Part shown: one piece after another, positions 11,574-46,427 of the stretch
Layout of the letters: every line of letters begins with the position of its first letter
How positions within the stretch are numbered: position 1 is the first letter of the stretch
From: a virus
Taxonomy: Duplodnaviria; Caudoviricetes
Reading direction: 5' to 3' (one strand)
Length of the DNA stretch: 62,248 nucleotides
IMG/VR virus record: IMGVR_UViG_3300028490_000008
Location: 1-62,248 of that record
Program-made: the position numbers and the translations under genes
The notes under the pieces: model-generated
Databases searched by the model: none
Seen by the model: the letters and a program-made list of their open reading frames with translations, nothing else
Told to the model about the DNA's origin: nothing

Positions 11574-11603
11574 CGTTATCTCCTTTTGGTTTTGATGAAA
11601 GGA

Positions 11604-11612: not shown

Positions 11613-11622
11613 CAACTATCCC

Positions 11623-12045: not shown

Positions 12046-12087
12046 AAATATCTCCTTGTTTGAATGAGAGATTATAGCTAAAATGGG

Positions 12088-12285: not shown

Positions 12286-12376
12286 ATAAGCCTCCTACTT
12301 TTCTTGAGGTATTATAGCATGAAATCACTAAAAAGCAATAAGCTTTATGTTAAGATATCGCCAAAGGAAGGTGTAG

Positions 12377-12613
12377 ATGACAGATTTTACAGTGTGCTTC
12401 GTAGCACTAGACGAGAAGCAAGAGTTTAAATATATAGCACATATCATGTATGGACAAAGGTTTCCTGTTCACAATCGTAAGGACATTGTAGATCTTTGTG
12501 CTGCAATGAACAAATTGTCAGAAGAACCAGTGACTTACGTAGATGTATTTCATGTGTTAGATGAGTATGGTAAGACAGTATGGATGGAGAGCGAAGTACA
12601 ACCTATTGACTAA
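12377..12613 (+). CDS. Hypothetical protein
   Basis: TGTTAAGAT at 12348-12356 and purine-rich RBS. Confidence 0.65.
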   Translation: MTDFTVCFVALDEKQEFKYIAHIMYGQRFPVHNRKDIVDLCAAMNKLSEEPVTYVDVFHVLDEYGKTVWMESEVQPID

Positions 12614-20726: not shown

Positions 20727-21509
20727 ATGCAGAACTTAACGGTATTTGATGGGGAGTTCAACCTCATCGGAGAGCTAGAAGATGATAAACACTTCGACCT
20801 AGCTCTCGAAATCAGCAACAAACTACAAGGCAAGGTTGAAGGCGTATCTGATGAGGCAGAGGATCTCCTATGGATAGAGCAACACCAAATGAGATACACC
20901 TTCATTAAGCTAATGCTGTTTGTAGATGCTGAGATAAACATAATTGCAGATGCAATGGACATGAAAGAAGAGCTTGTTACTGCCTACAAGAAGCTTTTCT
21001 TTGATGTACATAAGATCCGTGGTGGTCACTTAGGTCGTACTCAATTCTACGAAGACATATTCGCCAAGTACAATGAAGGGTCACAGGAGTTTGCTTTTGG
21101 TATAATGCTACGAGAAGCAAACTTAGGTGGTGAAGACATCATACTTGCTCAGTTCGACATCAACATGAGAGATATGTCAGTAACAAGATACAAAGACTTA
21201 TTGCAAAAGAAAGCCATCTGGCGTGAGAACATAGTGGAGCGTAGTGATGAACAAGACTATGATGCATTACATGCTGAGATGAAGTCAAGAGAGTCGGTTC
21301 TCAACCTTGTTACTAAGGCAACATCCAAGGATGATAAGGCTAAGATTTCTGATCTTGGTGCACTTGTTAGAGTTCTTGAGAGTATGAATAAAATGGATCT
21401 TGGGCGAGGTCAACTACAACTTCGTACTTATGATACAAAAACAGAGGAAGTGTTTGAGGCTGAATTGCTCGAACCACCTAAACAAACAGACAAAGAGGAG
21501 ATTGAATAA
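20727..21509 (+). CDS. Hypothetical helical protein upstream of the portal-like gene
   Basis: 260-aa ORF, TAATG-coupled to the next gene. Confidence 0.75.
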   Translation: MQNLTVFDGEFNLIGELEDDKHFDLALEISNKLQGKVEGVSDEAEDLLWIEQHQMRYTFIKLMLFVDAEINIIADAMDMKEELVTAYKKLFFDVHKIRGGHLGRTQFYEDIFAKYNEGSQEFAFGIMLREANLGGEDIILAQFDINMRDMSVTRYKDLLQKKAIWRENIVERSDEQDYDALHAEMKSRESVLNLVTKATSKDDKAKISDLGALVRVLESMNKMDLGRGQLQLRTYDTKTEEVFEAELLEPPKQTDKEEIE

Positions 21510-23353
21510 TGGGTTCTACATTTAGCGGAAAATTATATGACAGAAGGTTTATGGGGAAGTACAACAACTTAAGTAGTATATATGCAGACATACTTCCTAA
21601 TGATATTAAAGAGGTTATACAGTGGTCGGAGTTTATCGTAGCCAATGTACCTCTTGTAGCATCAGCTCTGGACAAGATGTCGTCTGTTGCGATTACTTCA
21701 TTGCAGTATATGACTGATGACCTTAGTGAGATGACAACCAATGATGCTAAGTCTTGGAAAAGCATATTGGAAGAGAATATGGAAATAGAAGAGAAGTTGC
21801 AAGAGACTGGGTTCAACTACCTACTTAATGGTAATGTATTTTTGTCTGTATTCTTCCCTATACATAGAACAGTTACATGTATGAAGTGTAAGACAGAGTT
21901 GTCTCAAGACAGATTTACCTCTTCTAGTAGCCTGAAGCCTGAAATGGAAGAGATACTCATGCCTACCAATGGTAAGCGTGGGGGTAAGAAAGAAAAGGGC
22001 ACCAAGACCACAAAGAAGCAGAAAGTCTTAGTGTTCAAAGGTGGATGTCCTGCATGTGCCGCCAAGTCTATATTTACAATCAAAGATATCAAGGTCAAAG
22101 ATATGGGTGGTGTAAATATCGTAACATGGCCTATCAACAGTATAAACTTCGTAAGTGACAACATCACAGGTAGAAGTACATACTATTACCGAATGCCTAA
22201 TGCTAACCGTAAGATGATTACAGAGGGCTTCCTCGATATGATATTCCATCAACCATTGGACATGATAGAAGCAGCGGTGAAGAACACTACTGTCAAGTTT
22301 GACCAAGGTAAGGTGTTGCACCTACGAAGAAAGAAGATGTCTGGTACAAACACAGGATGGGGAATGCCTATCTTAACCTCATCGATACCAGAGATGATAT
22401 CACTACTCCTACTACGTAAGTCACAAGAGCGTATATTGTCAGACATGATCTTCCCTTTACGTGGACTATCACCTAAAGCAAGTGGCTCTGATGGTAATGC
22501 TGTATACAACTTTATGTCAGGTACAGACCTTAGTCAGAAAGTAGAGAACATGCTTAAGGGTCACAAGAATAACCCTACGAGTATCAAGTATTTCCCTATA
22601 CCACTAGACACAGTAACTGCATTTGGAGAGGGTAAGTCGCTGAACCTATCAGAGGAGATAGACCAAATCTCAACTATGATTATGACCTCTATTGGTGTAC
22701 CGATTGAATTCGTTAAGGGTGGACTGGGATACACCGCAGCCGGTGCGTCAATCCGTGTACTTGAAAATCAACTGATGGGTCTTACAAACTCAATGGAAAA
22801 GGTAGCCAATTTTGTTGCAAAGCAGATAGCAGTGTATACAGACAAGAAGCCTGTACATATTAAGATCGTACCATTCCGTATCATTGATGATATTGCAGAG
22901 AAGCAGATACTCATGAGCCTTTACCAAGGACAGAAGCTTTCAGATCATACTATGGCATCTATGTTCAAGTTGGATGCTACTACTGAGAATGAGCGTATGA
23001 GTGAAGAGATGAAGCAAGGTATACGTACGAGATCTGAACTTGAAGAGTATCAGCGTAACCTTGCACAGAACCTTGAGGAGAAAGCGAAGACTGAAGCAAT
23101 GCTCAGTACAAGCTCCACTCAACAGGTTAATCAGCAAGCTATTATGCAAGAGGCTGACCAGATGGCTGCACAACTCAATCAGATGGACTCTGGTATGAAG
23201 AAGTCAGAAATGGATCGTCTACAGAAAGAGAACTGGCTATTGTATGTTGCTACTAAGGAACGTATGGAGTTCAATGCTCAAAAGGACGCTACTTCCGCAG
23301 CTCATGACCAAAAAGCAGAAGAGATGGGCATGGCACCACAAGGACAACAGTAG
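21509..23353 (+). CDS. Putative portal protein with Zn-ribbon insertion
   Basis: 614 aa; PLVASALDK, NYLLNGNVF, VLHLR..SG..GWGMP, SIGVP.EF..GG fit the portal motif order; CMKC...CPAC insert. Confidence 0.65.
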   Translation: MGSTFSGKLYDRRFMGKYNNLSSIYADILPNDIKEVIQWSEFIVANVPLVASALDKMSSVAITSLQYMTDDLSEMTTNDAKSWKSILEENMEIEEKLQETGFNYLLNGNVFLSVFFPIHRTVTCMKCKTELSQDRFTSSSSLKPEMEEILMPTNGKRGGKKEKGTKTTKKQKVLVFKGGCPACAAKSIFTIKDIKVKDMGGVNIVTWPINSINFVSDNITGRSTYYYRMPNANRKMITEGFLDMIFHQPLDMIEAAVKNTTVKFDQGKVLHLRRKKMSGTNTGWGMPILTSSIPEMISLLLLRKSQERILSDMIFPLRGLSPKASGSDGNAVYNFMSGTDLSQKVENMLKGHKNNPTSIKYFPIPLDTVTAFGEGKSLNLSEEIDQISTMIMTSIGVPIEFVKGGLGYTAAGASIRVLENQLMGLTNSMEKVANFVAKQIAVYTDKKPVHIKIVPFRIIDDIAEKQILMSLYQGQKLSDHTMASMFKLDATTENERMSEEMKQGIRTRSELEEYQRNLAQNLEEKAKTEAMLSTSSTQQVNQQAIMQEADQMAAQLNQMDSGMKKSEMDRLQKENWLLYVATKERMEFNAQKDATSAAHDQKAEEMGMAPQGQQ

Positions 23354-28942: not shown

Positions 28943-29574
28943 TTTCATTTTTCAAAGACTTATTTAGCGGTACATCAGAAGATACAGATGTAGATGAGGA
29001 CAAGCTTGACTCTGTTAAGAACAAGATGACAATACGTCTATCTGATACAAAGACTCCTTCATTAGATTACCCAAGAGGGTTCGATGCGAACAAGCCAACG
29101 ATTGTAATCCTAGATGACAGTTCTGGAGCCACTTTGTTGTTTGATGACAATATTAAAGAGTTGCAAGCAGAAGGTGGTCTTGCAGCAGAACTACAGTTCC
29201 TCAAGGTGAGCACACCACAGGCTGTTTTTATGCTCCGAGGGGAATTGGATAAGGGAAGACTAAATAACATCGTAGGGGCTGTGCTAGACATCACTATAGG
29301 CGGATATGCTATCGTTGATGGACACACTGTGATACTTGACGGGATAGATGCACATAAAATCATAAGTGACAGATTTCCAAAGGCTGCTATGAGGTTCTTT
29401 ACATCTCACTCAATGAACGAGAAGAATGCAGAGATATATAGGTTCATGAAGAAGTATGAAGAGTATGCAGGCGAGAGCATTGTAGAGAAGACATACATGA
29501 AGAACCCTTTCACTACGAACCGTATAGATATGCTTAGGGATATTCTAGGGGAAATAAATGATGTTAAGAGTTAG
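28939..29574 (+). CDS. Stand-alone response-regulator receiver-like protein
   Basis: IVILDD, VLDI (candidate phospho-Asp), DG.D, FFTSH, MKNP; no output domain seen. Confidence 0.75.
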   Translation: MISFFKDLFSGTSEDTDVDEDKLDSVKNKMTIRLSDTKTPSLDYPRGFDANKPTIVILDDSSGATLLFDDNIKELQAEGGLAAELQFLKVSTPQAVFMLRGELDKGRLNNIVGAVLDITIGGYAIVDGHTVILDGIDAHKIISDRFPKAAMRFFTSHSMNEKNAEIYRFMKKYEEYAGESIVEKTYMKNPFTTNRIDMLRDILGEINDVKS

Positions 29575-32410: not shown

Positions 32411-32962
32411 ATGAAGAGAATGGTGCTTTTTTCTGGAGGCGTAGACTCAACAGCTCTGCTTTTACAAGAGCTTGAGAGTGGTAGTGATGTCCTGGTGGTT
32501 CATCTTATACTCAAGACAGAAACAAATAGATGGCAACTAGAGATGGTTGCTTGTGCAAGAGTGATAGCAGAACTACACGCACGAGGGTATGACTTTGAAT
32601 ATATGGATGTGACAGTAGATGCAACCGCAATGGGTGGAGGTAGAGACAGTTGGTATTATATCCAAACAGCAGCTAATATTGCCAGAAACAGAGAAGACAT
32701 TATTGCTGTAGCTGTAGGGTTTATAGATGACGAGGCAGAAGCTATAGCCTTCCCTCAAACCATAAACAACACCGAGCTTTTCAGAGGTTGCAAGGGGACA
32801 AGTTGTGCTGAACTTACATATCCTCTTGCAGGCAAAACAAAGAAAGAGCTTATCGCTAAAATGGGTAATCTCTTTGAATGCACGTTCTCTTGCAGGGTTC
32901 CCGTAGGCATAGAGCCATGTGGACAATGCAATACTTGCAAAGCCATTAAAGAAGCATTGTAG
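32411..32962 (+). CDS. queC: QueC-like PP-loop ATPase (7-cyano-7-deazaguanine synthase family)
   Basis: VLFSGGVDST PP-loop; PL...TK; TFSC...PCGQCNTC Zn site. Confidence 0.75.
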   Translation: MKRMVLFSGGVDSTALLLQELESGSDVLVVHLILKTETNRWQLEMVACARVIAELHARGYDFEYMDVTVDATAMGGGRDSWYYIQTAANIARNREDIIAVAVGFIDDEAEAIAFPQTINNTELFRGCKGTSCAELTYPLAGKTKKELIAKMGNLFECTFSCRVPVGIEPCGQCNTCKAIKEAL

Positions 32963-33022: not shown

Positions 33023-34108
33023 ATGCCATACCTAGCACCAACAGCAAGCGTAAATAACTTGTTAGTAAACGAAGTATCAAATGACGCAACATTCACAGCA
33101 CCAGAGACAGGAATATACCTAGTTTCTTCTTTAAAGATAGAAAGTGGGAGCACAGATGGATCTGGCAACCTTACAATGGAAGCAACTGCAGGTGGAACAT
33201 CTGTCCCTACTATGGACGGAGTAGCTCCAACTACAACTGGTGATGTTCTACTTTCTAAGTATCACTTCACTAAAGATACAGAATATACAATCATGGGGTC
33301 TGGTTCAAGACTTACGTGTATGATTGCTCACTCTGCATATTTTACAGACAGAACAGATAAAGGTTCAGAGCTTACATTTGATGAAATGGATGAGAACTTT
33401 ACTCTTGGTGCGATTGCTCTTGATAAGATTGAGAAGGAAATGGGCACAGCTCTATTAAAGCAAGCTAAGCCAGATGTTGTTATCGACTTATTCAATGGTA
33501 TCAGTGAAGAGCAACTCACAGTATCTACAGGGCACGACCTTATGCTTGGTGTAGATGACAACGGTGCTATCGGTTGGGGTAGAATTGTATCTTCTGAAGG
33601 TGACTACAACTTCTCTGTCACTAGAGAAATCAGTATTGACCTAGAAGAGGACTTGGATGCAATGCATGGCCCTATCACTCTTCACCACGATGGAGAGACG
33701 GGATACTTCCTTAAGTGTAACAAGAAGTATAATGATGGATATGGAAACATTGCGTGGAGTGGCTCGGCTACTATCTCTAATGGGGATCTTATTGCGAGAC
33801 TAATGGAAGAGTTGACGCTTGCTGAAGTAAACAAGCTTAACTACTCAAGACCATACTCTGTATGTGTTGCTAGAGTTAACGACCATACGAAGTCAGGACT
33901 AGGACTGTGTGTTGTTAATAACCTAGACACTGGCGTACCAACACCGGTAGTATTTGAGGCAAGAGAGACATCGGCTTATTTCAATAGAGTGCTTACAACT
34001 CTTGCATACGAAGTTAATAGCTACAACTACCCTATTAAAAGATGGTGTGCTCTTGGTCTTGATGAGTATGAGAATATTACTTTTGACCCAACTTCTCCGG
34101 CAGCCTAA
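33023..34108 (+). CDS. Putative tail/virion appendage protein
   Basis: FTAPETGIYLV beta motif; internal RTDKGSELTFDEMDENF motif. Confidence 0.6.
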   Translation: MPYLAPTASVNNLLVNEVSNDATFTAPETGIYLVSSLKIESGSTDGSGNLTMEATAGGTSVPTMDGVAPTTTGDVLLSKYHFTKDTEYTIMGSGSRLTCMIAHSAYFTDRTDKGSELTFDEMDENFTLGAIALDKIEKEMGTALLKQAKPDVVIDLFNGISEEQLTVSTGHDLMLGVDDNGAIGWGRIVSSEGDYNFSVTREISIDLEEDLDAMHGPITLHHDGETGYFLKCNKKYNDGYGNIAWSGSATISNGDLIARLMEELTLAEVNKLNYSRPYSVCVARVNDHTKSGLGLCVVNNLDTGVPTPVVFEARETSAYFNRVLTTLAYEVNSYNYPIKRWCALGLDEYENITFDPTSPAA

Positions 34109-34740
34109 TGAGGCACGATAACCTCACTGCGGTTATCCCTCACTACAACACCCCAAAGTCCCTCCTTGCGAGGGCAATAAAATCCCTTGACAAATATGGA
34201 ATAAAGTATATCATCGTAGATGATGGCAGCGACGAAAAGCATAAGGCTGGACTACTGCAATACAAAGATAGAGTTATATTCCTGAAAGAGAATAAGGGAC
34301 AGGGGTATGCTAATTATGTGGGATTTTATGCCGTAGAGACAAAGTGGGCAATGAGAATGGACAGTGATGATTACCTCACGACAGATCCATCTTATGATGA
34401 TGAGGCAGTTGTGCATACACAAGCATCTATATACCCACAGCCAAAATCAGCAAACGAGTTGTTTGCGAAGCCATATGCTTATTTAGCCGGTGCTGTTGCA
34501 AGATCATCTGTGTATGTAAAAGTGTACTCTGACATAGTGTCGGTTAGGATGATGGAAGATATAGAAGCCATGGGTAACATGTTTGGTAACAATATGACAA
34601 TGAAGCACCATGACACTATATGGTATGCATACGAGAGTAAAAGAGAAGGTAGTGTGACAGGAAGTAGAACTCCAGGTGAATGCAGTGCTATCAAAAAGAA
34701 GATAATCAAGGCTCACGCTTTAAAATTCAAGACTAGGTAA
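34108..34740 (+). CDS. Glycosyltransferase family 2
   Basis: VIPHYN, IVDDGS, ENKGQG.A, DSDD, ED. Confidence 0.9.
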   Translation: MRHDNLTAVIPHYNTPKSLLARAIKSLDKYGIKYIIVDDGSDEKHKAGLLQYKDRVIFLKENKGQGYANYVGFYAVETKWAMRMDSDDYLTTDPSYDDEAVVHTQASIYPQPKSANELFAKPYAYLAGAVARSSVYVKVYSDIVSVRMMEDIEAMGNMFGNNMTMKHHDTIWYAYESKREGSVTGSRTPGECSAIKKKIIKAHALKFKTR

Positions 34741-37268: not shown

Positions 37269-40091
37269 ATGTACTTTTCAGCAGGCGGAAACAAACAAGG
37301 TGAAGATGGCTATAAAGACTTTTTTGGAGACGGTAGTGAGAAGTTCTATTTTCCTATGCAAGGGTCTGGAAGTGAAATTCTGAACAGACAGAGAATTTAC
37401 ACAAACTACAACTATGATAGATACAATGTTGTTGATGGTAAGATGTGTTTAGAGTTTAGAGCTACGGACTCAAACAACAATTATGCATATACAAACAATA
37501 ACATACCAAGAAGCACGTGGGAAGCAACATCTATTACGGCAAGAGTTCGGATAGACGCTGCAAACGATGGGAGATGGGTCAATATATTTGGAATTGGGTA
37601 TTGGGACCTTAGAAATGGAAGCAGACAACCAGGACTATGGGTGTTCCCTGACGACAAGACAAAGCTCCACTGTAGGAATGATAGTGAAGACAAAGACAAT
37701 GATGGTGCAGACTCTGAGTCTGGTGCTATCCCTCATGAGGAGTGGTTTGATCTAACTGTATCTATAGAGCCTTTGCGTATGAGGGTATGGGTTGGCAGAG
37801 ACAAAATTATAGACTATGTTCCACTGAAGCCTTTCAGAAAGTACGATAGACAACTAATCCTTGGGGCAGGGTACTCTTATGGAGGAGTGTCTATGTTTGA
37901 TATCAGGATATTCAATAGAGGGATGACTCAGAAAGATGTGGATTTTATAGATAGAAAATTCAAGAAAGACTTTCTCCCTTTTGAAGCAGATAGCAGATAT
38001 GAAACTCTTGAGGATAATAGAACTCTTAGAGCCTACCCTTTCAAAGATAGTATACAAGATATGATTACAGGAGAGAATATAAATGCTGTAGGTGGGACCA
38101 ATCAGGCTCAACTGTACAGTGGACAACTTCATGTAGGTCACGATCAGTTCCAGATAGAAAACCTTCCTGTGGATGAAGACACAGAGGCGATCACTCTTAG
38201 TGGGATGCTTTACCCTACTGCATCTGGCATGATGTTTGGAATGTACAGCCACTCTATATATCAATACAATAGTGGGTTCGGTTTCAATACAGGAGCAAGT
38301 GACTGTTATGGTATTCCCTTGACTATTGTTCAACACCGATGGAGTCATATCTCCATAACATTCAAGAAGGGTAAGTACGGGGATATCTTCGTAAATGGAA
38401 TACGACAAACACTACAGCACTTCGCCACAGTCCCTGATGCTGTAGACCCTCAGTTGGTAGATAGAATAGCTTTCAGTGGATGGCTAGGTGATGCCAGCTA
38501 TAGATATGCAGGATGGTATAAGAAGCTAAAGGTTATCAAGGGAGAACTCACAGATGCAGAGGCTATGCTTTTGGCTACCGAAGAATGGCCTACTGACAGA
38601 TCTATAGACGGCTTCCCTAAAGGAGGAGGCTTGTTTGTTCATTGCGAAGATGAGCCAGAAGAAGCATGTATTGCAATGGCTACGAGAGTAGGAGCCACAT
38701 CCTTTAGACCAGAACATTTGATTGCTCCAGTGAAAGTCACACCATATTCAGCAGAAAAAGGCAAGCGTAGATTATGGGAGCGTATGGAGGCACTGAAGAA
38801 TGAAGCACAAGATGGTGCATTAAGATACAGTCTGGATATAGACAACCTTCCTTCTTCTCAGAAGGAAATGTATAATGGGGAGACAGCTCTAATTATGTCA
38901 GAGGCTAATGTAATAGATACTGGCGTTGAACAGGTAGATTTTAAGTCTGTACACATGAGAGCATATTATGATGGAGTGTCTATTGTAGGTGTTGGAAATA
39001 CCGTAAACAACCGGTTACATATCAGAACCAGAGGTGAGTCTATGTATATCCAATGGAGAGAGGGTGCAGGTGGAGTATGGAACTACTCATCTTATGCAAT
39101 ACCTACGGAACTGCTAAATACATGGGTAGATTTCATTGTGTCTGTAAACGCAAGAGGTATACAGTTTGACAGGGTTACGGCGAATGGAAAGAACCTGCCT
39201 CATTCACTAGAGACTGATAGCGATGGAACACTGAGTTCTAAGACTTTTGCAGGCACTGCCAAGATTGGTGCTTCTTTGTATAACAGCGAAGTAATATACA
39301 GTGATGGAAGATTGTCTAAGCTAGATATCTACTCATCGTATTTAGGGCAAAAGAATATAGACAATATTATTGCAGGCAAGACATACAATGATGGTCTCAA
39401 GAAGTATAGTAAAGAAGAGACAATTATCGAAAGAGTTGGACAAGACTTGTATGGTATATACAAAGGGGCTACAGTAATGGGAATGGATCATGAGAATGAT
39501 GATTTCTGGTTCCACAAGTCTATACCTGGGGTAATAGAAACGAGTCACATCTTTGTTGGTATACAGAAGCCTCGGTTTGAGGGGTTCATAAAGAGAGAAG
39601 TTGGATCTTCTTTTGGAGAGAACTCATACTACGCTAGAGCTACAAGCAATGATATTTTGGGCAGTTTTATGGATAGACTATCTCATCCTTACTGGCACGG
39701 AATATACAAGACGGTTGGAGGACTTCCTGTATCCGCAAAGGTCAGAGTTGTTGTGCATATGCTATGCGTGGACTCACTTGACCAAGCACAAAATGACAGA
39801 TTTATAGTTGAAGCAGGAAGCAAACAACTTAGAATATCACCATCCACAACGATGATAAATCAAGTGGCATCATTAGATGCACTGATTGCTGTTCAGCCAA
39901 CCATCATAAAGATGGAGGGAGTATGGCAGCATAGTGGACTAGGTGAGACCATGGCTAGTTTCATGTTTGATGTAGACACAAATGCTTCAGGGCAGGTATA
40001 CGTGCGTGTAAGAGGGTATACAAATCAGTCATACAACGATGAGTCTTTTGGGCTTGTTGCTGCTGATTTCTATGAGCTACCTCAAGAGTAA
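37269..40091 (+). CDS. Multi-LamG/ConA-like domain protein (putative receptor-binding fibre)
   Basis: About three units with W.[DH]...[ST]...[VF]NG and ending DIRIFNRGMT / KLKVIKGELT / KLDIYSSYL. Confidence 0.7.
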   Translation: MYFSAGGNKQGEDGYKDFFGDGSEKFYFPMQGSGSEILNRQRIYTNYNYDRYNVVDGKMCLEFRATDSNNNYAYTNNNIPRSTWEATSITARVRIDAANDGRWVNIFGIGYWDLRNGSRQPGLWVFPDDKTKLHCRNDSEDKDNDGADSESGAIPHEEWFDLTVSIEPLRMRVWVGRDKIIDYVPLKPFRKYDRQLILGAGYSYGGVSMFDIRIFNRGMTQKDVDFIDRKFKKDFLPFEADSRYETLEDNRTLRAYPFKDSIQDMITGENINAVGGTNQAQLYSGQLHVGHDQFQIENLPVDEDTEAITLSGMLYPTASGMMFGMYSHSIYQYNSGFGFNTGASDCYGIPLTIVQHRWSHISITFKKGKYGDIFVNGIRQTLQHFATVPDAVDPQLVDRIAFSGWLGDASYRYAGWYKKLKVIKGELTDAEAMLLATEEWPTDRSIDGFPKGGGLFVHCEDEPEEACIAMATRVGATSFRPEHLIAPVKVTPYSAEKGKRRLWERMEALKNEAQDGALRYSLDIDNLPSSQKEMYNGETALIMSEANVIDTGVEQVDFKSVHMRAYYDGVSIVGVGNTVNNRLHIRTRGESMYIQWREGAGGVWNYSSYAIPTELLNTWVDFIVSVNARGIQFDRVTANGKNLPHSLETDSDGTLSSKTFAGTAKIGASLYNSEVIYSDGRLSKLDIYSSYLGQKNIDNIIAGKTYNDGLKKYSKEETIIERVGQDLYGIYKGATVMGMDHENDDFWFHKSIPGVIETSHIFVGIQKPRFEGFIKREVGSSFGENSYYARATSNDILGSFMDRLSHPYWHGIYKTVGGLPVSAKVRVVVHMLCVDSLDQAQNDRFIVEAGSKQLRISPSTTMINQVASLDALIAVQPTIIKMEGVWQHSGLGETMASFMFDVDTNASGQVYVRVRGYTNQSYNDESFGLVAADFYELPQE

Positions 40092-40099: not shown

Positions 40100-40108
40100 C
40101 GGTATAAT
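40100..40108 (+). promoter_or_regulatory. -10 promoter CGGTATAAT upstream of the RNAP gene
   Basis: TATAAT 23 nt before the ATG; AGGAG RBS. Confidence 0.65.
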
Positions 40109-40131
40109 GCAGAATACAAACAGGAGTAGAT

Positions 40132-43100
40132 ATGACAAGTTTAAATAGAGACCACAACGAGCTTAACTCAGCGATGAGAACAGAAGTTACAAAAGCTTTT
40201 GAGGGCAAGAAAGTTGAAGGTAAATACAAGTCTCTATTGTATTCCAATGTGACACCACAAAAAACAGACGAGTCTTTTAGAAAGTTGACATCGACTATTA
40301 ATAGTGGTGGAACAATGGCACAAAAATACAAGGCTGACATAACAATCCTAGACAACGAAACAGGAAAGGTTGTAGACCATAAAAAAGGTGTACATATTGG
40401 AGACGTACCTCTATATACCAAGAAAGGTGGTTTCGTAATTGATGGGAACACATATAACCTTCCTAACCAAATCAGACTTAAGCCAGGGGCGTACACTCTC
40501 AATAAAGCCAATGGTGATGTAGAGACCATGATGAACGTGAAGAATGGTACAGGAATGAAGCTAGTGTCTCCACAGGATAAGGATGATGTAAAGCTACAGA
40601 TTGGATCACGTCAATTTAACCCGTTGGATGTCGCTAAGATACTTGGTGCATCAGACAAAGAGATTGATGGGACGATAGGTAAGGATGTGGCTACCCATTT
40701 GCGAAAGAAGTCGAATGTTGAAGGTACAGCTCTGAAGCTTTCTCAGACTCTTGGTCTTACTGGTCCAGACATAACTCCTCCCCATAAAGAAATCATGGTT
40801 GGTCTTACTGACTACTTTAAAAAGACAGAGCTAGACCCTAGTGTAACAGAACATACACTCGGCAAGGCAACCACAACTGTAGATAAAAACACAATGTTGT
40901 TGAGTATCAAGCGAAACGTGGGAGTTAAGCGTGGCACAGAAGAAGAAGATGACAAAGAAAATCTCATGTTCAAACAAATCATCACTCCAGAGAAGCTACT
41001 TGTAGAAGGCGTAGCGAGGGACATTCGTAAGCCTGAAGCTAGAATGAAAGGGTTACTAAACAACCCGTTTCAAAAGGTTACTGTTGGTGAGATAATGAAA
41101 GAGCCTACACTCAAACATGCAGCCAAGACTTTCTTAACCACAAGTGCAATATCAAGAATGCCTGAAGAGTACAATCCATTGCAGACACTACAAGGTGGTA
41201 GCGATATTACTCCTATGGGTGAGGGTGGAATTACATCTACCGAAATGATTACTCCGTCTGTGCGTTCCTTGCATTTATCTCAGCTTGGGTTTATTGATCC
41301 TATTAAGTCACCAGAAGGTGCAAATACAGGTGTAACACTCAGCACAACACATGGAGCATTCGTTGATAGTAAAGGAAATGCTTCTTTGCGTGTAAAGAAC
41401 CTTAAGACAGGAAAGTCAGAGGTTAAAACTGTAGGCGAACTATGGAAGAAGAAGATAGCATTCCCAGACCCTAAAAAGAATGGTGAGGTAGGAATACGTC
41501 AGGGCTCAGATATGACGGTGGGTAACATCAAGCATGCTGACTATCAGATAGTTGACTCAGAGGACATCTACGGGCCAGCAATGAACGCTCTTGGCATAAT
41601 AAGCTCAAACGACCCAACAAGAAACCTAATGGCGTCCAAGCATGTGTTACAAGCCTTACCCTTAGTGGATGCTGATGCTAACCCTGTAAGTCTGAAGGGT
41701 AAAGATGGACAAAGTCTATTGAAGAGACTTGCCAATTCGCATTTACCTACATCTAAGTTTGATGGTAAAGTGAGTAGAGTAGATACAAGAGCCGGGAAAA
41801 TACACTATACTGACACGTCTGGCAAAGAGCATATGGAAGATTATGCCGTAGACCCAATGCAACTGAACACTAAGACATTCATAAGTCATAAGCCTATAGT
41901 GAAGGCAGGGGATAAGATATCAAAAGGACAAGCCCTCGCTGACTCTAACTTCTCAAAAAATGGAGAGCTTGCAATAGGCAAGAACCTTAGAACTGCATGG
42001 ATGATGTATCCAGGTACACGTAATGATGCGTTTGTTGTATCCGAGAGTGCAGCGAAGAAGCTTACATCCGTCCATTCATCTAAGTTTGATATAGATGGCA
42101 CAAAAGGTACAATCCTAGACAAAAAGAAGTTTGCTGCAATGTTCCCTGAAGTTGTAAAGAAGTTGGATCTATCTAAGTATGGTGACAATGGGGTTATGCT
42201 GAAGGGACAGTCTGTAGTCAAAGATGAACCTATCGTATTAGGCATGAAAAAGATGGACCCGTCAGAAGTTAGATTTGCAAACGACAAAGTGAAGAAACTG
42301 TTGTACGGAGGAATGGCACCAGTGATGCAGAAGTGGAAGGGTGACAATACAGGTGTTGTTACAAGTGTGTCAACCAAAGGCTCGCAGCATAGAGTCATCG
42401 CTGAATACAAAGCACCTCTTATCAAGGGTGACAAGATAGCAGGGCGTAGTGGGAATAAAGGTATTATATCAGCCGTAATTCCAGACAATGATATGCCTAG
42501 AGACGAGAAGGGAAATCCTATCGATGTAATACTCGGTGGTGCAGGTGTAAACTCAAGACAAAACCCAGCTCAGATTATCGAGGCTTCTTTGAGTGAGACG
42601 GCGAAAAAGACAGGAAAGCCGTATGTCCTTCCTCACTATACTCATAATGATCTTAGGAATTTTGCGAACGATGAAGCTAAGAAGAATGGGGTGAAGCTAT
42701 ATCACAAGGTATACGACCCATTAAGAAAGGTTACGCTGAAGCAACCTGTGTTTGTAGCAGACTATAACATCATGAAACTGTTCAAGCAAGGGGAAGGGAC
42801 ATACTCTGCAATAGGGCATGGACCAGTAGATGCTCTTAACCAACCTAAAAAGGGTGGGAAAGAGTCTGCAGCTTCTGTATCCAATATGGAAATAAATGCA
42901 CTTCTTGCACATGATGCACGAGATTTTCTTAGAGAAGTAGGGACAGTAAAGTCTCAGCGAAACCAAAAGTGGTTCTCTGCTTTTGAAGCCGGTGGTATTC
43001 CTCCTGCACCAGAGAGAAAGTCTGCGAGAGACAATTTCCATGGTCTTCTTAATCAGATGAATATACAAGTCAGAGAAGACGGAAACAGAAGACATATCTT

Positions 43101-44367
43101 GCCTCTATTGGATAAGGATGTAGTAAAGAGAAGTAGTGGTGTAGTAAATGAGCCTTTTGGTCTTAAACGAAACACTATGGACCCTGTAGCAGGCGGCTTT
43201 TATGATACGAGTATATTCGGTGGTCACGGTGAGAACTATGGGCATATTGATTTAGGTGTAAAAGTAATCAATCCACTGTATAAGAAACCTGTAGCTGCAC
43301 TCATGGGTGTAACAGAGAAGGGACTAGATAGTCATATTGCAGAACATGGAATTGACAGTGTGTATAAAAAGATAAGTGGGGCTAGAATAAAACCTACAAT
43401 TAAACACATGAAAGATATGATTAAGCGTACGAAAGACACAGCTAAGGCAGACAGAGCAATGAAAGCCATCAAGTCTTTAAAGAAGATAGATGGTCTAGGT
43501 GAGAACCCTGCAGACGTTATGTTTATGTCAAAAGTGTCAGTGCTTCCTGTTAAGATGAGACCTCCGTCAAAAATGCCAGACGGAAGTATTATTGAGCATG
43601 ATGTAAATAATCACTATTCAAATATTGCTAGATCTGCAAATCAGATAAAAAAACTAGATAAAGATGTACCTGCTTCTCTAAGGAACAGATTACACAGTGA
43701 ATTGCAGGCACACGTAGGGGCTATGTTTGGAACAAATGTATCTCCTGACCCAAAGATGATTAGAAAAGAGACAAAGAGTGTTATGGACATAGTGTCTGGA
43801 GCGAACCCTAAGACATCGTTTTGGCACCAGAAGATACTAAAGAATAAAGTCTTTGGTTCCGGTAGAGCTGTTATTGTTCCTCACACAAAGTCTTTAGGTA
43901 TGGACCAGGTAGAAATACCAAAGCATGTAGCTTGGAGTGCATTTCAGCCCCACGTTACTAGGAAGATGTCACAAATGGGTATCCCTAACGACAGAGCAAA
44001 AGAAATGATAGAGCAAAGAAACGAGACTGCCACAAATGTTCTTACTCAAGTAATGAAGGATGTACCTGTAGTTATTAACAGAGCACCTGCATTGCACAAG
44101 CATAATATGACAGGCCACTATGCTAAAATCTCAGGTGGAAATGTAATGCATATACCACCAGAGATAGAGAATGGACAGAACGCAGATTATGATGGCGACC
44201 AACTTGCAATACACGTTCCATTTGGACAAAAAGCAATCCATGATGTGAAGACAAAGCTTATGGCATCTAAGCAGTTGTTTACTGACTCGGCAAAAAAAGG
44301 TCTTACTATGGGTATAGATCTTGACCCTTTTATTGGGTTCTATGATGCAACAAAGAAAGGAAGATAG
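40132..44367 (+). CDS. rpoBC: Phage DNA-directed RNA polymerase: beta fused to N-terminal beta-prime
   Basis: Beta motifs FVIDG..NQIR..PG, SPEGAN.G, GELAIGKN, GDKIAGRSGNKG, SRQN.AQ, MEINAL; beta-prime motifs GHIDL, VLPVKMRP, SGRAVI, NRAPALH, NADYDGDQ.A.HVP. Confidence 0.95.
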   Translation: MTSLNRDHNELNSAMRTEVTKAFEGKKVEGKYKSLLYSNVTPQKTDESFRKLTSTINSGGTMAQKYKADITILDNETGKVVDHKKGVHIGDVPLYTKKGGFVIDGNTYNLPNQIRLKPGAYTLNKANGDVETMMNVKNGTGMKLVSPQDKDDVKLQIGSRQFNPLDVAKILGASDKEIDGTIGKDVATHLRKKSNVEGTALKLSQTLGLTGPDITPPHKEIMVGLTDYFKKTELDPSVTEHTLGKATTTVDKNTMLLSIKRNVGVKRGTEEEDDKENLMFKQIITPEKLLVEGVARDIRKPEARMKGLLNNPFQKVTVGEIMKEPTLKHAAKTFLTTSAISRMPEEYNPLQTLQGGSDITPMGEGGITSTEMITPSVRSLHLSQLGFIDPIKSPEGANTGVTLSTTHGAFVDSKGNASLRVKNLKTGKSEVKTVGELWKKKIAFPDPKKNGEVGIRQGSDMTVGNIKHADYQIVDSEDIYGPAMNALGIISSNDPTRNLMASKHVLQALPLVDADANPVSLKGKDGQSLLKRLANSHLPTSKFDGKVSRVDTRAGKIHYTDTSGKEHMEDYAVDPMQLNTKTFISHKPIVKAGDKISKGQALADSNFSKNGELAIGKNLRTAWMMYPGTRNDAFVVSESAAKKLTSVHSSKFDIDGTKGTILDKKKFAAMFPEVVKKLDLSKYGDNGVMLKGQSVVKDEPIVLGMKKMDPSEVRFANDKVKKLLYGGMAPVMQKWKGDNTGVVTSVSTKGSQHRVIAEYKAPLIKGDKIAGRSGNKGIISAVIPDNDMPRDEKGNPIDVILGGAGVNSRQNPAQIIEASLSETAKKTGKPYVLPHYTHNDLRNFANDEAKKNGVKLYHKVYDPLRKVTLKQPVFVADYNIMKLFKQGEGTYSAIGHGPVDALNQPKKGGKESAASVSNMEINALLAHDARDFLREVGTVKSQRNQKWFSAFEAGGIPPAPERKSARDNFHGLLNQMNIQVREDGNRRHILPLLDKDVVKRSSGVVNEPFGLKRNTMDPVAGGFYDTSIFGGHGENYGHIDLGVKVINPLYKKPVAALMGVTEKGLDSHIAEHGIDSVYKKISGARIKPTIKHMKDMIKRTKDTAKADRAMKAIKSLKKIDGLGENPADVMFMSKVSVLPVKMRPPSKMPDGSIIEHDVNNHYSNIARSANQIKKLDKDVPASLRNRLHSELQAHVGAMFGTNVSPDPKMIRKETKSVMDIVSGANPKTSFWHQKILKNKVFGSGRAVIVPHTKSLGMDQVEIPKHVAWSAFQPHVTRKMSQMGIPNDRAKEMIEQRNETATNVLTQVMKDVPVVINRAPALHKHNMTGHYAKISGGNVMHIPPEIENGQNADYDGDQLAIHVPFGQKAIHDVKTKLMASKQLFTDSAKKGLTMGIDLDPFIGFYDATKKGR

Positions 44368-44368: not shown

Positions 44369-44677
44369 ATGGATAAATTAGCAACGAGTCTATTTAAGTC
44401 AAAACTCATCGCTTCGGCAAGAAGAGCGAAGACTGAGAAGACAAGAAAAGCAGTAGGAAAAGAGCTAGACAGCGGAGACTTTGAGAGAAGTAATTACCTC
44501 AAGGCTCAGAAAAATCATGCCATTAGCGTAGAGAAGCGTAACAAGACAGACAAGATGGTTGACGGCAAGCTGTCAAAGAAGTTTAGAGGTGTAGTTAAGA
44601 GCATTAAAAAGAAGCTGTCAGTAGGTGATTTCTTTAAGGGAAAAATGTCCCCAATGGCTCAGCCGGCTATGGCTTAA
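44369..44677 (+). CDS. Small basic protein (MDKLA start)
   Basis: ATG 1 nt after the RNAP stop; Lys-rich. Confidence 0.7.
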   Translation: MDKLATSLFKSKLIASARRAKTEKTRKAVGKELDSGDFERSNYLKAQKNHAISVEKRNKTDKMVDGKLSKKFRGVVKSIKKKLSVGDFFKGKMSPMAQPAMA

Positions 44678-44729: not shown

Positions 44730-46427
44730 ATGATTACACTTGTAGGTAAAATCCTTAAAGATAGTATGCCTGTTGCAGGAGGTTCTGTACAGATATATGT
44801 ATACGATCCTGCCAACAATATAGAGCAATGGTCGGACGTAGTAGTCGCTGACTCAAACGGAAGATATCAAGTTGCATTCTCAGATGTGAGAGAGCTTCAC
44901 CAGAACTTTTCAGACAAAGCAGAGATACTTGTTTCTGCATGGGAAGATGCGAGCGAGATCAGAACAGACACACATGCATATCTAGGGAGTTCTATCCTAC
45001 AATATGATGGAGAAGCTCTTTGTATCGTAGATGTTACAATACTAGAAGCAGGACAATGTTCATATGAGCTTGTTAACAACTCTATCTCTATCACCCAAAA
45101 TGAAAGAATTCCATACACACCACATTTCGAGTCCACTAACCAAGTAGGCTTTTTCCACGGAGTAAGAGTATTCCCTCAAAGTGTTGTGGCTGAAATACTA
45201 ATGAAAAACGGAACTGAGTTCATTGATCCATATGACCTTATTTTTGCAGAGGTTGGAGAGTTCACAGTAGACACTAGAGGAACAAGTGTATTCGGTGTAT
45301 CTTTTGTTGGCACACTGCATGTTACTACTATTGCAAGTACAGACAATGAACAATCATTGGTGTTTGATGATATCGATATCGACAGAGGGTTGGCATTCTT
45401 TGTTATAAAAGACAGAGGGATTAAAGACAACATTTTAAACCTTAGCATGTACACCTCACAGAGATACACTCTTTCCAATGTGAAATTCTTCGTAGATGAT
45501 TTGATGGTAAGAGAGATTACTGACTTCTCTACTCCTTTGGTGTCAATAGCCCTTGCAGGTATTGCTGGGTCAAGCAGAATGTTACGTATGGAAGCGACAG
45601 GGACTATTGAAGGTTCTACTGATGAAGTTTCATATGAATACGAGAGACAAGTAAAAGACTTCAGTACAATCACCGGAGACATATCTGTATCTTTAGATCC
45701 ACAAACAGGATTGCATACCGCAGCCCTTAGTACAACGAGTGGCTCTGAAGTGTCAGAGATACTGTGGCAAATAGTATACAAATCTACGATAGTAGAGAAG
45801 GTGTTAAAAGTCTCAAATGTAGAAGAGAAGGCTCTTATTAATATCTTATACCAAGAGTACACAGACCCATCTACAACAACGCTTGAGTTTGAAGCATTAC
45901 AGCCAGGGAACTATTCTATCGTGGCATACGTCATAAATTCATCTGGTGTGTATTTCAAGATAAGTGAAGACTTGTTTGTTCCGGGCGGTGGTGGAGAAGA
46001 GCAACCTATTAATGTGGGTGACTCTATTACTGTGGGCTGTCTAAGCAATCATGGTGAGGTTCCAATTATGTCAATCTACAGGCTGTCGAGAGATGGCTAC
46101 GAGTCAGAGATAAGTGTACCTATGCAGCATGCCTTTGAGAGAACATACTTCTACGACTATACGGTTGAAGATGATGACAGCTTCTATATCTTTAAGGCAG
46201 CAGACAGTGTTGTAGTTAAAAAGGTTGGTACTCCGAGAGGTTGTGCTATTGCATATTCAAAAAACAAAGAAGTTGGAAGAGATATTCCTTTTCAGCTTCA
46301 AGACTTCAACGGGAACACTATTGACAGTGGCATACTAGACGACTCTGGATTTGGTGTGTATTATAAAGTCATGTCAGAGAATGTACATGGTGTTCTAGTT
46401 GTAGGAAGTACATATAAGGTCGTGTAA
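44730..46427 (+). CDS. Putative structural protein with Ig-like beta domains
   Basis: ADSNGRYQV and QPGNYSI strands; acidic, beta-rich. Confidence 0.6.
   Translation: MITLVGKILKDSMPVAGGSVQIYVYDPANNIEQWSDVVVADSNGRYQVAFSDVRELHQNFSDKAEILVSAWEDASEIRTDTHAYLGSSILQYDGEALCIVDVTILEAGQCSYELVNNSISITQNERIPYTPHFESTNQVGFFHGVRVFPQSVVAEILMKNGTEFIDPYDLIFAEVGEFTVDTRGTSVFGVSFVGTLHVTTIASTDNEQSLVFDDIDIDRGLAFFVIKDRGIKDNILNLSMYTSQRYTLSNVKFFVDDLMVREITDFSTPLVSIALAGIAGSSRMLRMEATGTIEGSTDEVSYEYERQVKDFSTITGDISVSLDPQTGLHTAALSTTSGSEVSEILWQIVYKSTIVEKVLKVSNVEEKALINILYQEYTDPSTTTLEFEALQPGNYSIVAYVINSSGVYFKISEDLFVPGGGGEEQPINVGDSITVGCLSNHGEVPIMSIYRLSRDGYESEISVPMQHAFERTYFYDYTVEDDDSFYIFKAADSVVVKKVGTPRGCAIAYSKNKEVGRDIPFQLQDFNGNTIDSGILDDSGFGVYYKVMSENVHGVLVVGSTYKVV

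What the first reader, a model, noticed from the sequence alone, without database searches (positions are those of the whole stretch)
40132..44367. Single-chain minimal RNA polymerase: beta fused to the catalytic N-terminal part of beta-prime
Seen: one uninterrupted 1411-aa ORF carries bacterial RpoB motifs in order (about aa 1-980, including GDKIAGRSGNKG at 42427-42462), a short linker near 43072-43090, then RpoC motifs up to NADYDGD (44179-44199). It stops just after the equivalent of QDxVLGLY. Both double-psi barrels are therefore on one chain, but the bridge helix, trigger loop and beta-prime C-terminus are missing. Established: phiKZ/AR9 RNAPs split these subunits further rather than fusing them; Helicobacter RpoBC is a full-length fusion about twice this size; cyanobacterial RpoC1/RpoC2 splits at a similar point; yeast linear plasmid pGKL2 uses a fused ORF6 plus a separate ORF7. 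Inference: a distinct two-piece phage RNAP whose RpoC2-like partner is encoded elsewhere. It may be virion-packaged, since it is coupled to a K-x-A basic protein gene.
Basis: partly seen in the sequence, partly recalled or inferred. Interest (0 to 1): 0.9.

Follow-up and report, generated by a model that had tools for sequence, protein, structure and literature searches.

The report
Two-chain phage RNA polymerase, large subunit
This phage gene encodes a bacterial-type RNA polymerase chain in which the whole beta subunit is fused to the catalytic front part of beta-prime; the rest of beta-prime sits in a separate gene outside this fragment, a layout shared by many phages and barely described.

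Summary
ORF 40132-44367 (+) is one open 1411-aa frame, and every motif sits at the stated coordinates. It holds a nearly full-length beta plus the beta-prime N-part with NADYDGD. It ends in a variable linker just after the barrel domain.

It is not a single-chain enzyme. The window is a 33%-complete fragment with no beta-prime C-part. All 3 related contigs examined encode a separate 580-596-aa bridge-helix and trigger-loop chain. In the complete 188-kb relative this gene lies about 70 kb away on the other strand.

Relatives hold one polymerase gene set, no alpha subunit, and a small sigma-like gene.

The closest isolate is Salmonella phage Arash (29% identity). Its gp206, gp216 and sigma gp10 were abundant in virion proteomics.

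About 2000-aa full fusions also belong to the family.

My searches found no paper describing this partition.

This scan has already found the same layout on other genomes.

The verdict is a real enzyme subunit and a new variant of a known kind. Virion packaging is inferred, not shown.

The parts
40132..44367 (+). Gene for the large RNA polymerase subunit: beta fused to the N-terminal catalytic part of beta-prime (1411 aa, no cysteine)
40132..43083 (+). Beta module (about aa 1-984), nearly full-length bacterial-type beta
   Evidence: aa 60-955 align to 76-1026 of a 1100-aa beta; profile positions 18-982 align to 29-1054 of 1100, E 1e-135. Pfam Rpb2_3 and Rpb2_6.
42427..42462 (+). Beta active-site motif GDKIAGRSGNKG with the conserved lysines
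   Evidence: for coordinates. D767, K768, K776 and G777 are invariant in 27 family members.
43069..43098 (+). Direct junction of the beta C-terminus and the beta-prime N-terminus, with no long linker. The beta-prime N-terminal region is shortened and has no zinc ribbon.
   Evidence: beta alignments end at profile position about 982-1005, and beta-prime homology resumes at 1063, matching beta-prime residue 151-173; 0 Cys in 1411 aa. The exact boundary is my reading of the alignments.
43084..44364 (+). Beta-prime N module (about aa 985-1411): clamp part, clamp helices and the catalytic double-psi barrel
   Evidence: Rpb1_1 and Rpb1_2; aa 1091-1389 align to E. coli beta-prime 199-497.
43588..43716 (+). 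Clamp helices (about aa 1153-1195), the predicted docking site for a sigma-like factor
   Evidence: interface residues 1153-1195 in the 79%-identical relative P0004; numbering is the same to within 1 residue. This is a model only.
44179..44199 (+). Catalytic Mg-binding motif NADYDGD
   Evidence: D1352, D1354, G1355 and D1356 are invariant in 27 members.
44311..44367 (+). Last conserved motif, 7-residue tail and TAG stop: the fission point within a variable inter-domain linker
40103..40126 (+). TATAAT-like hexamer (40103-40108) and AGGAG ribosome-binding site (40122-40126) ahead of the ATG. A possible promoter; which polymerase would use it is unknown.
   Evidence: Read from the sequence. The motif family is only weakly enriched: 26 found against 15.8 expected.
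44369..44677 (+). Small basic ORF (102 aa) next to the stop. It is lineage-specific and not a conserved partner, so it is not part of the polymerase system.
   Evidence: no homologue in L003, L004 or L005.
21509..23353 (+). Context: homologue of the Arash portal protein gp204, 17 kb upstream on the same strand
   Evidence: tblastn E 1.6e-57, 25% identity over 473 aa.

Best explanation
The ORF encodes the large subunit of a phage-encoded, bacterial-type (two-barrel) RNA polymerase with an unusual partition. A nearly complete beta is joined head-to-tail to the first part of beta-prime: a shortened clamp without the zinc ribbon, the clamp helices, and the catalytic barrel with NADYDGD.

Shown:
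- The chain ends in a variable linker just after the barrel.
- The bridge helix, second zinc site and trigger loop are on a separate chain of about 580 aa. That gene lies far away in the genome (about 70 kb, opposite strand, in the complete 188-kb relative), outside this 33%-complete fragment.

Inferred:
- The two chains assemble into a core of about 1990 residues with no alpha subunit. The covalent beta to beta-prime link does the job that the alpha dimer does in cells.
- A small sigma-like protein, homologous to Arash gp10 and present in 3 of 3 relatives, docks on the clamp helices and gives promoter specificity.
- Relatives have only one polymerase gene set, so the same enzyme probably serves throughout infection.
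- By analogy with Salmonella phage Arash, it is probably carried in the virion and injected to start transcription without the host enzyme.
- The two-chain form arose by gene fission from a single-chain beta to beta-prime ancestor, once or possibly twice at the same linker.

My odds are about 0.9 for the two-chain polymerase, about 0.6 for pairing with the sigma-like factor, and about 0.5 for virion packaging.
For: Domain content and order. Catalytic residues are invariant in 27 family members.

Fission point.

No beta-prime C-part in the window:
- Arash gp216 as query found nothing.
- PF04998 found nothing, with 14 of 14 control genomes positive.
- A family HMM against all six-frame ORFs of 40 aa or more gave a best non-self E of 0.54.

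Partner chain:
- It is present in 3 of 3 related contigs as open frames of 581, 587 and 596 aa.
- The G001 ORF (580 aa) aligns to E. coli beta-prime 719-1007 and carries Rpb1_5.
- 39 close homologues of 536-592 aa are in the collection. One of them, P0126, is on a 192328-bp contig, the same length as P0001's contig.

Gene complement in relatives:
- One Rpb1_2 locus and one Rpb2_6 locus in each of G001, G002 and Arash.
- Alpha N-domain PF01193 in 0 of 4 records, with 14 of 14 controls positive.

Sigma-like factor:
- Arash gp10 (Sigma70_r3, E 9e-9) has homologues in G001, G002 and G003 (E 1.9e-7 to 1.2e-5).
- Pairwise E is 2e-10.
- The G001 ORF matches Sigma70_r3 at E 6e-5, 23.5 bits, just under the 25.3 cut-off.

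Complex model of G001 beta-prime N part (aa 985-1415) with its sigma-like protein:
- Score 0.69; best of 3 controls 0.00.
- The mark was reached by 58 of 80 solved complexes and 2 of 110 mismatched pairs.
- The runs agree in at least 41% of contacts, and the partner's pLDDT is at least 67.
- The interface is on the clamp helices.
- Sigma to beta-prime complexes are solved, so this pass may come from memory. It shows likeness, not binding.

Arash virion proteomics (passages read): gp206 had the most spectra (3516), gp216 had 1210, and gp10 had 100% coverage.

Tree: the full fusions form a basal grade, and the split forms sit in one clade with 99% SH-aLRT support.
Against: - Nothing here shows expression, assembly, activity or packaging for this phage.
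- The partner and the sigma-like gene are not in the window.
- Arash is only 29% identical.
- The Arash particle proteome also contained ribonucleotide reductases, ligases, helicases and a primase. Its authors themselves allow carry-over of abundant infection proteins.
- A TATAAT-like element precedes the gene, so host-polymerase expression of a non-packaged enzyme is possible.
- The sigma-like ORF is below Pfam's cut-off, and Sigma70_r2 and r4 were not found in this clade.
- The complex model used a relative's proteins and a 3-row alignment for the partner.
- The root of the tree is an assumption.
- One true full fusion, P0062, nests beside the window clade (97% support in the 24-row tree). 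The AU test on a single clade of split forms is borderline (p 0.057).
Confidence: 0.8

Rival explanations
1. The same two-chain polymerase, but never packaged. The host polymerase reads sigma-70-like promoters early, including the one ahead of this gene. The phage enzyme then takes over middle and late transcription, as T7 RNA polymerase does in kind.
For: - A TATAAT-like hexamer lies 24 nt ahead of the ATG.
- The Arash particle proteome contains many enzymes that are unlikely to be structural, and its authors allow carry-over.
Against: - Arash gp206 gave the most spectra of all proteins in the particle preparation, and gp216 and sigma gp10 were also high.
- The gene lies on the same strand as, and 17 kb downstream of, a portal homologue, in a conserved block of large genes.
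- The motif is only weakly enriched: 26 found against 15.8 +/- 4.3 expected, with 1 of 100 shuffles reaching 26.
- The phage's own sigma-like factor could read such elements.
Confidence: 0.35
2. The 1411-aa chain works alone as a minimal single-chain polymerase, without a bridge helix or trigger loop.
For: Both catalytic barrels and all metal-binding and lysine residues are on this chain.
Against: - A beta-prime C gene of conserved length (580-596 aa) is kept in 3 of 3 relatives and in Arash and D69.
- In 20 of the 85 best family hits it is covalently attached.
- From established knowledge, not from a call: the bridge helix and trigger loop take part in nucleotide addition and translocation in all cellular-type enzymes.
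Confidence: 0.03
3. The stop at 44365, or the beta to beta-prime junction, is an assembly or frameshift artefact of a longer or differently cut gene.
For: No read-level check was possible. Only one public run holds a small share of the stretch, and only as contigs.
Against: - 33 of 34 closest homologues from independent sources have the same length class, 1403-1433 aa.
- The junction is collinear in 27 aligned members down to 26% identity.
- No beta-prime C coding sequence follows in any frame.
- The partner gene in the complete relative is 70 kb away on the other strand.
Confidence: 0.02
4. The two halves of beta-prime are rejoined after translation by a split intein.
For: Inteins or homing-endonuclease domains occur in several family members: PF14528 and PF14890 in P0052, P0065-P0067, P0072, P0076, P0078 and P0080.
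Against: - The chain has only about 7 residues after its last conserved motif and contains no cysteine at all.
- The partner begins directly with sequence that aligns to the full fusions.
- There is therefore no room for intein halves. This is an inference from the alignment.
Confidence: 0.01

Closest known systems
Salmonella phage Arash gp206 (1525 aa) + gp216 (606 aa) + sigma gp10 (OQ632216.1; PMC10585845), and Vibrio phages D69, D148, D181
   Same: - One ORF carries beta then the beta-prime N-part: 29% identity over 94% of the query, E 4e-165.
- A separate beta-prime C chain carries Rpb1_5.
- There is one polymerase gene set and no alpha subunit.
- A gp10-type sigma-like gene is shared with the window's clade, and so is a portal homologue.
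   Different: - The Arash-type chain keeps about 33 more residues (a variable insert) after the last motif.
- In Arash the partner lies about 5 kb downstream on the same strand, and the portal gene is almost adjacent. Here the portal is 17 kb away, and the partner in the close relative is 70 kb away on the other strand.
- Arash and D69 also have a second sigma with a clear region 2. It was not found in this clade.
- The paper calls gp206 simply 'subunit beta'.
Full-length single-chain beta to beta-prime fusions of the same phage family (metagenomic, 2005-2164 aa without inteins, e.g. P0042, P0046, P0053, P0069)
   Same: They are about 28-31% identical over 93-99% of the query and have the same junction of beta to beta-prime.
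   Different: - They continue through the bridge helix, zinc site and trigger loop in the same polypeptide.
- None is in the isolate phage collection at 80% coverage or more. The only 4 such records are Arash and the 3 Vibrio phages.
phiKZ / AR9-type multisubunit RNA polymerases of jumbo phages
   Same: They are phage-encoded relatives of cellular beta and beta-prime without alpha. Beta-prime is cut into N and C chains, and one enzyme is virion-packaged (passages of PMC7824862 and PMC7598289).
   Different: - Those enzymes split beta and beta-prime into four or five chains and come as two paralogous sets, and group 1 phages have no sigma.
- Here beta is whole and fused to beta-prime N, there is one set, and a sigma-like gene is present.
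Yeast cytoplasmic linear plasmid (pGKL2) polymerase K2ORF6p + K2ORF7p (PMC6211774)
   Same: A large chain is described as a fusion of beta with a portion of beta-prime, and a small second chain carries C-terminal beta-prime regions (passages read).
   Different: - That enzyme is far more reduced: a large chain numbered to residue 974, a 15.5-kDa (132-residue) small one, and most of the clamp missing.
- Its cut lies between regions a15 and a16 of beta-prime, as in some archaea, so after the bridge-helix half.
- I made no sequence comparison with it.
- That paper called the beta to beta-prime fusion unique among polymerases. The phage family shows it is not.
Cyanobacterial and plastid RpoC1 (gamma) / RpoC2 split, and Helicobacter-type RpoBC fusion
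   Same: - The best-matching solved beta chains are cyanobacterial.
- Beta-prime is cut after the catalytic half.
- From recalled knowledge: natural beta to beta-prime fusion through the same termini exists in Helicobacter.
   Different: - The 625-aa gamma chain aligns up to its residue 505 at query position 310 of 331, so gamma runs on about 100 residues beyond the phage cut.
- Cellular enzymes keep alpha, omega and the zinc ribbon.
- From recalled knowledge: the Helicobacter fusion is full length, about twice this size.

Membership tests
Cellular-type two-barrel RNA polymerase catalytic core (beta / beta-prime) | Beta double-psi barrel with the conserved lysine motif (Pfam Rpb2_6) | tested here: met
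   E 6.7e-36. The motif is at aa 766-777. K768 and K776 are invariant in 27 members.
Cellular-type two-barrel RNA polymerase catalytic core (beta / beta-prime) | Beta-prime barrel with the NADFDGD-type metal-binding loop (Pfam Rpb1_2) | tested here: met
   E 2.6e-17. NADYDGD is at aa 1350-1356. The three Asp are invariant.
Cellular-type two-barrel RNA polymerase catalytic core (beta / beta-prime) | Bridge helix, second zinc site and trigger loop (beta-prime C half, Rpb1_5) | tested here: not met
   Absent from this ORF and from the whole window. Present on a separate chain in 3 of 3 relatives.
Cellular-type two-barrel RNA polymerase catalytic core (beta / beta-prime) | Alpha dimer as assembly platform (PF01193) | tested here: not met
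   0 of 4 records (window, G001, G002, Arash). 14 of 14 control genomes were positive. Omega was not tested.
Cellular-type two-barrel RNA polymerase catalytic core (beta / beta-prime) | Beta-prime N-terminal zinc ribbon (four Cys) | tested here: not met
   0 Cys in 1411 aa. About 60 profile positions stand where bacterial beta-prime has about 150-170 residues.
Arash-type two-chain phage polymerase (beta::beta-prime-N + beta-prime-C) | One ORF with beta then beta-prime N, ending within about 125 aa after DxDGD | tested here: met
   The tail is 61 aa here. It is 59-123 aa in the non-partial family proteins that lack a beta-prime C hit and in which my motif pattern matched.
Arash-type two-chain phage polymerase (beta::beta-prime-N + beta-prime-C) | Separate beta-prime C gene of about 580-610 aa in the same genome | tested here: inconclusive
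   It is not in the 33%-complete window. It is present in 3 of 3 relatives. P0126 is on a contig of the same length as P0001's.
Arash-type two-chain phage polymerase (beta::beta-prime-N + beta-prime-C) | Both chains present in virions | not testable with these tools
   The only evidence is the Arash proteomics passages. There are no data for this phage.
phiKZ / AR9-type jumbo-phage polymerases | Beta and beta-prime each cut into two or more chains; two paralogous sets (virion and non-virion) | tested here: not met
   Beta is whole and fused. There is one Rpb2_6 locus and one Rpb1_2 locus per genome in G001, G002 and Arash. The definition is from passages.
mReC (multi-subunit RNAP-encoding Caudovirales, PMC7481178) | Contig encodes beta-like and beta-prime-like proteins of 800 aa or more with NADxDGD | tested here: inconclusive
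   The single 1411-aa protein carries both sets of Pfam domains and the motif. I could not run the COG models, and I could not see the paper's contig list because supplements are closed.
mReC (multi-subunit RNAP-encoding Caudovirales, PMC7481178) | Gp23-type major capsid protein (PF07068) and PF03237 large terminase | tested here: inconclusive
   PF07068 matched in 0 of 4 records, with no positive phage control. PF03237 matched in 3 of 4, the exception being the fragmentary window. The paper itself found capsid proteins in only 8 of its contigs.
Cyanobacterial-type RpoC1/RpoC2 split | Cut at the same position of beta-prime | tested here: not met
   Gamma (625 aa) extends about 100 residues past the phage cut.

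The most novel reading that the evidence does not exclude
This gene belongs to a large, essentially undescribed phage lineage. Its polymerases run from true single-chain beta to beta-prime enzymes of about 2000 aa to two-chain forms. They have no alpha or zinc ribbon, use a miniature sigma, and are injected with the DNA. They would be the simplest enzymes that still keep the full bacterial beta and beta-prime core. The single chain would be ancestral, and the inter-domain linker after the catalytic barrel would be a recurrent fission point, cut independently in the window's clade and in the Arash clade.
Probability: 0.3. Interest if true: 0.75.

Novelty: new variant of a known kind. Interest (0 to 1): 0.6.

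Why it matters
Cellular RNA polymerases need an alpha dimer to bring beta and beta-prime together. Here a covalent link seems to replace it, leaving a core of two chains, or one chain in sister lineages, that is still readily alignable to bacterial enzymes.

Such an enzyme would be a compact model for how the two-barrel core assembles and how a minimal sigma works. If it is injected, it is a third solution, beside the phiKZ and N4 or crAss types, to starting infection without the host polymerase. That would be relevant to rifampicin-independent phage growth.

The family also bears on the claim that the beta to beta-prime fusion of yeast linear plasmids is unique. It also bears on debates about whether split or fused forms are ancestral.

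A cultured member, Arash on a laboratory Salmonella strain, makes these questions testable.

Tried and rejected
- **Partner in the window.** Arash gp216, PF04998 and a family HMM over all six-frame ORFs found nothing.
- **Downstream 565-aa ORF (44730-46427) as the partner.** No similarity. No Pfam or PHROG hit.
- **Small basic ORF 44369-44677 as a conserved coupled gene.** No homologue in L003-L005.
- **Junction region alone against solved structures.** No meaningful hit. The family profile was used instead.
- **Read-level check of junction and stop.**
  - One run was listed, with a small share (0.08), kept as contigs. No RNA holder was listed.
  - When laid, 9 short pieces fitted, most under 90% alike. 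None bridged the junction or the stop. So this is no evidence either way.
- **AU test on the 59-row tree.** It did not finish in three calls. I replaced it with a 24-row LG+G4 tree and test.
- **Sigma search.** Sigma70_r2, Sigma70_r4 (one weak hit, E 0.011, in G002) and Arash gp196 found nothing convincing in this clade. Arash gp10 then did.
- **Gp23-type capsid.** None in 4 records.
- **Literature.**
  - Searches, and keyword finds in PMC7481178, PMC7824862, PMC7598289, PMC13282480 and PMC12153180, gave no description of a beta::beta-prime-N plus beta-prime-C phage polymerase.
  - Subscription journals and supplements were not searchable.
- **Structure prediction of the ORF.** Not run. 1411 aa exceeds the 1200-aa limit, and cut pieces could only have had a shallow alignment.

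Full report
**Observation.**

- The window holds one uninterrupted ORF at 40132-44367 (+), 1411 aa, ending in TAG.
GDKIAGRSGNKG is at 42427-42462, NADYDGD is at 44179-44199, and the junction is near 43069-43098.
- Pfam finds, in order, Rpb2 domain 3, Rpb2 domain 6, Rpb1 domain 1 and Rpb1 domain 2. It finds none of Rpb1 domains 3-5.
- Against solved structures, aa 60-955 align with residues 76-1026 of a 1100-aa cyanobacterial beta (E 3.3e-52). Aa 1072-1407 align with mycobacterial beta-prime 256-589 (E 1.3e-31).
- A profile of 27 family members (A1) raises these to E 1e-135 for beta (profile 18-982 against 29-1054 of 1100) and E 1.5e-93 for beta-prime (profile 1063-1443 against 173-563).
- So beta is nearly complete.
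- Only about 60 profile positions stand where bacterial beta-prime has its first 150-170 residues. The protein has no cysteine at all, so the N-terminal zinc ribbon is gone.
- The catalytic aspartates and the beta lysines are invariant across the 27 members.

**Where the chain ends.**

- I aligned the protein with 12 full-length fusions of the same family. It stops just after the conserved motif about 55 residues past NADYDGD, and the others run on for 543-653 residues.
- A closer alignment shows that the cut lies in a variable linker.
- Some full fusions have an insert of about 35-40 residues there, and P0046 and P0062 have none.
- The Arash and D69 chains keep that insert at their C-terminus. 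The window's clade lacks it.
- In all three split genomes examined, the partner chain starts at the next conserved block.
- On E. coli numbering, the chain ends at about residue 519 (query 309 = 497).
- The partner of the close relative aligns from residue 118 to E. coli 719, and through to 1007.
- The cyanobacterial gamma chain (625 aa) aligns only up to its residue 505 at query position 310 of 331. The cyanobacterial cut is therefore about 100 residues further on, not at the same point.

**The partner.**

- The window is the whole virus record: linear, with estimated completeness 33%.
- It contains no beta-prime C-part:
  - Arash gp216 finds nothing.
  - PF04998 finds nothing, while all 14 control genomes ring.
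  - An HMM of the C-parts of 12 full fusions plus Arash gp216 and D69_0264 gives no hit among all six-frame ORFs of 40 aa or more. The best non-self E is 0.54.
- Three related virus contigs were found (63, 60 and 79% identity). All three hold a PF04998 match over the cut-off, in open frames of 581, 587 and 596 aa.
- In G001 (187664 bp, terminal repeats, 100% complete) the fused gene is at about 90.6-94.8 kb on one strand. The partner is at about 163-165 kb on the other strand.
- Its 580-aa ORF shows a cysteine cluster and matches Rpb1_5.
- The protein collection holds 39 close homologues of 536-592 aa. One is P0126 (580 aa, 76% identical to G001's), on a 192328-bp contig. P0001 itself is on record on a contig of that same length.

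**What else the enzyme has.**

- G001, G002 and Arash each have one Rpb1_2 locus and one Rpb2_6 locus. There is one polymerase set, unlike phiKZ-type phages.
- The alpha N-domain is found in none of 4 records. All 14 controls were positive.
- Sigma70 regions 2 and 4 were not found in the window's clade, and neither was a homologue of Arash gp196.
- Arash gp10 carries Sigma70_r3 (E 9e-9). It has homologues in G001, G002 and G003 in open frames of 233, 213 and 208 aa (E 1.9e-7 to 1.2e-5).
- The G001 ORF (217 aa) is 26% identical to gp10 over 157 residues (E 2e-10). It matches Sigma70_r3 at E 6e-5, just below Pfam's cut-off.
- I modelled the complex of G001's beta-prime N part (aa 985-1415, 28-row alignment) with this protein (3-row alignment):
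  - The score was 0.69, against 0.00 for the best of 3 controls.
  - The mark was reached by 58 of 80 solved complexes and 2 of 110 mismatched pairs.
  - The runs agree in at least 41% of contacts, and the partner's pLDDT is at least 67.
  - The contacts fall on residues 1153-1195. These are the two helices after the conserved proline-rich motif. From established knowledge, that is where sigma region 2 binds bacterial beta-prime.
  - Such complexes are solved, so the pass may be from memory. It shows likeness and uses a relative's proteins.

**Relatives and evolution.**

- In the isolate phage collection, only 4 records cover 80% or more of the query: Salmonella phage Arash and Vibrio phages D69, D148 and D181.
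- Arash gp206 (1525 aa) aligns over nearly its whole length (29% identity, E 4e-165). Arash gp216 (606 aa) is the partner.
- In metagenomes the family is large. 187 proteins had E of 0.001 or less among 8000 scored candidates.
- Of the 85 best, 20 carry the beta-prime C-part in the same chain and 65 do not. Three of the 65 are partial.
- I built a 59-row tree. It used 9 of the 34 window-clade proteins, P0035-P0078, P0082-P0085, Arash and D69. I left out 25 near-duplicates of the window clade, which include the 992-aa partial P0018, and also P0079-P0081. The beta-prime C columns were excluded, and the tree was rooted on P0082-P0085.
  - The full fusions form a basal grade.
  - One clade (99% SH-aLRT) holds 38 split forms plus P0062 and P0076.
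  - P0076 has no beta-prime C HMM hit and carries an intein-type domain, so my length-based label for it was wrong.
  - P0062 is a true full fusion on a long branch.
- In a 24-row LG+G4 tree, P0062 is sister to the window clade (97%). Holding all split forms together costs 26 log-likelihood units (AU p 0.057).
- The split is therefore derived if the root is right. It arose once, with a re-fusion or a misplaced long branch, or twice at the same linker.

**Virion packaging.**

- The Arash paper (passages read) reports gp206 as the protein with most spectra (3516). Gp216 had 1210, and sigma gp10 had 100% coverage.
- It also lists reductases, ligases, helicases and a primase. Its authors allow that abundant infection proteins may be carried over.
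- In the window, the gene lies in a conserved same-strand block of large unknown genes. It is 17 kb downstream of a homologue of the Arash portal (E 1.6e-57).
The small basic ORF has no homologue in 3 of 3 related loci.
- Packaging is thus an inference by distant homology.

**Comparison with the literature.**

- phiKZ/AR9 enzymes split beta and beta-prime further and come in two sets (passages).
- The mReC paper (parts 1-2 and keyword finds) speaks of beta and beta-prime subunits. It mentions fusion only for crAss-like phages. Whether its contigs include this family I cannot tell without its supplements.
  - The PF03237 terminase is present in 3 of 4 records.
  - The Gp23-type capsid is present in 0 of 4.
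- The yeast linear-plasmid polymerase is a fusion of beta with part of beta-prime plus a small second chain. Its authors called the fusion unique (passages). It is much more reduced and is cut at a different place.
- My five literature searches found no paper describing the present partition.

**Earlier notes of this scan.**

- The same layout was reported before on other genomes, with the same closest relative and the same literature blank.
- I reached the main points independently before reading them.
- Their mention of Arash gp10 led me to the sigma-like gene.

**Verdict.**

- This is a real, conserved, catalytically intact large subunit of a two-chain phage RNA polymerase.
- The partner and the sigma-like factor lie outside this fragment.
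- The architecture is a little-described variant of phage multisubunit-type polymerases. It is not a stand-alone single-chain enzyme, and it is not unique to this contig.

Noticed in passing
window 40132-44367: The 1411-aa protein contains no cysteine at all. Close relatives P0002, P0004, P0017, P0019 and P0044 also have none. The cysteines of the full fusions may lie in their beta-prime C-part.
   Followed up: partly
window, whole: The contig is almost entirely 'dark'. Of 28 ORFs scanned against PHROGs, only 5 had any hit at E of 0.001 or less. Pfam hits are few: a histidine-kinase-type ATPase domain at 29558-30961, a family 2 glycosyltransferase at 34108-34740, and a QueC/PP-loop domain at 32411-32962.
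   Followed up: no
window 37269-40091: The 940-aa ORF just upstream evolves far faster than its neighbours. It is 26% identical to its counterpart in L005, while the polymerase is 79% identical. It is absent from L003 and L004, where the 174-aa ORF homologue abuts the polymerase gene. It may be a host-range or injected protein.
   Followed up: no
L002-type records (Vibrio phages D181 and D148) and collection proteins P0052, P0065-P0067, P0072, P0076, P0078, P0080: In D181 and D148 the fused polymerase gene is matched in two pieces with a homing endonuclease annotated under the match. Several metagenomic members carry intein or LAGLIDADG domains. The gene is a frequent target of selfish elements.
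   Followed up: no
window 43447-43612: One 166-nt contig of a public run labelled hydrothermal vent metagenome is identical to this stretch. Other pieces of that run are only 80-90% alike. This is too little to name a habitat.
   Followed up: partly
G001 126625-132490 (L023) and Arash 1-12596 (L022): In both the 188-kb relative and Arash, the sigma-like gene lies within 6-12 kb downstream of the large terminase gene on the same strand. This is a conserved neighbourhood despite very low sequence identity.
   Followed up: partly
L011 (Rhizobium phage RHph_Y65): Kleczkowskaviridae phages carry a separate 1127-aa beta-prime gene that matches only aa 1037-1401 of the query. This is a different, unfused phage polymerase layout.
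   Followed up: no
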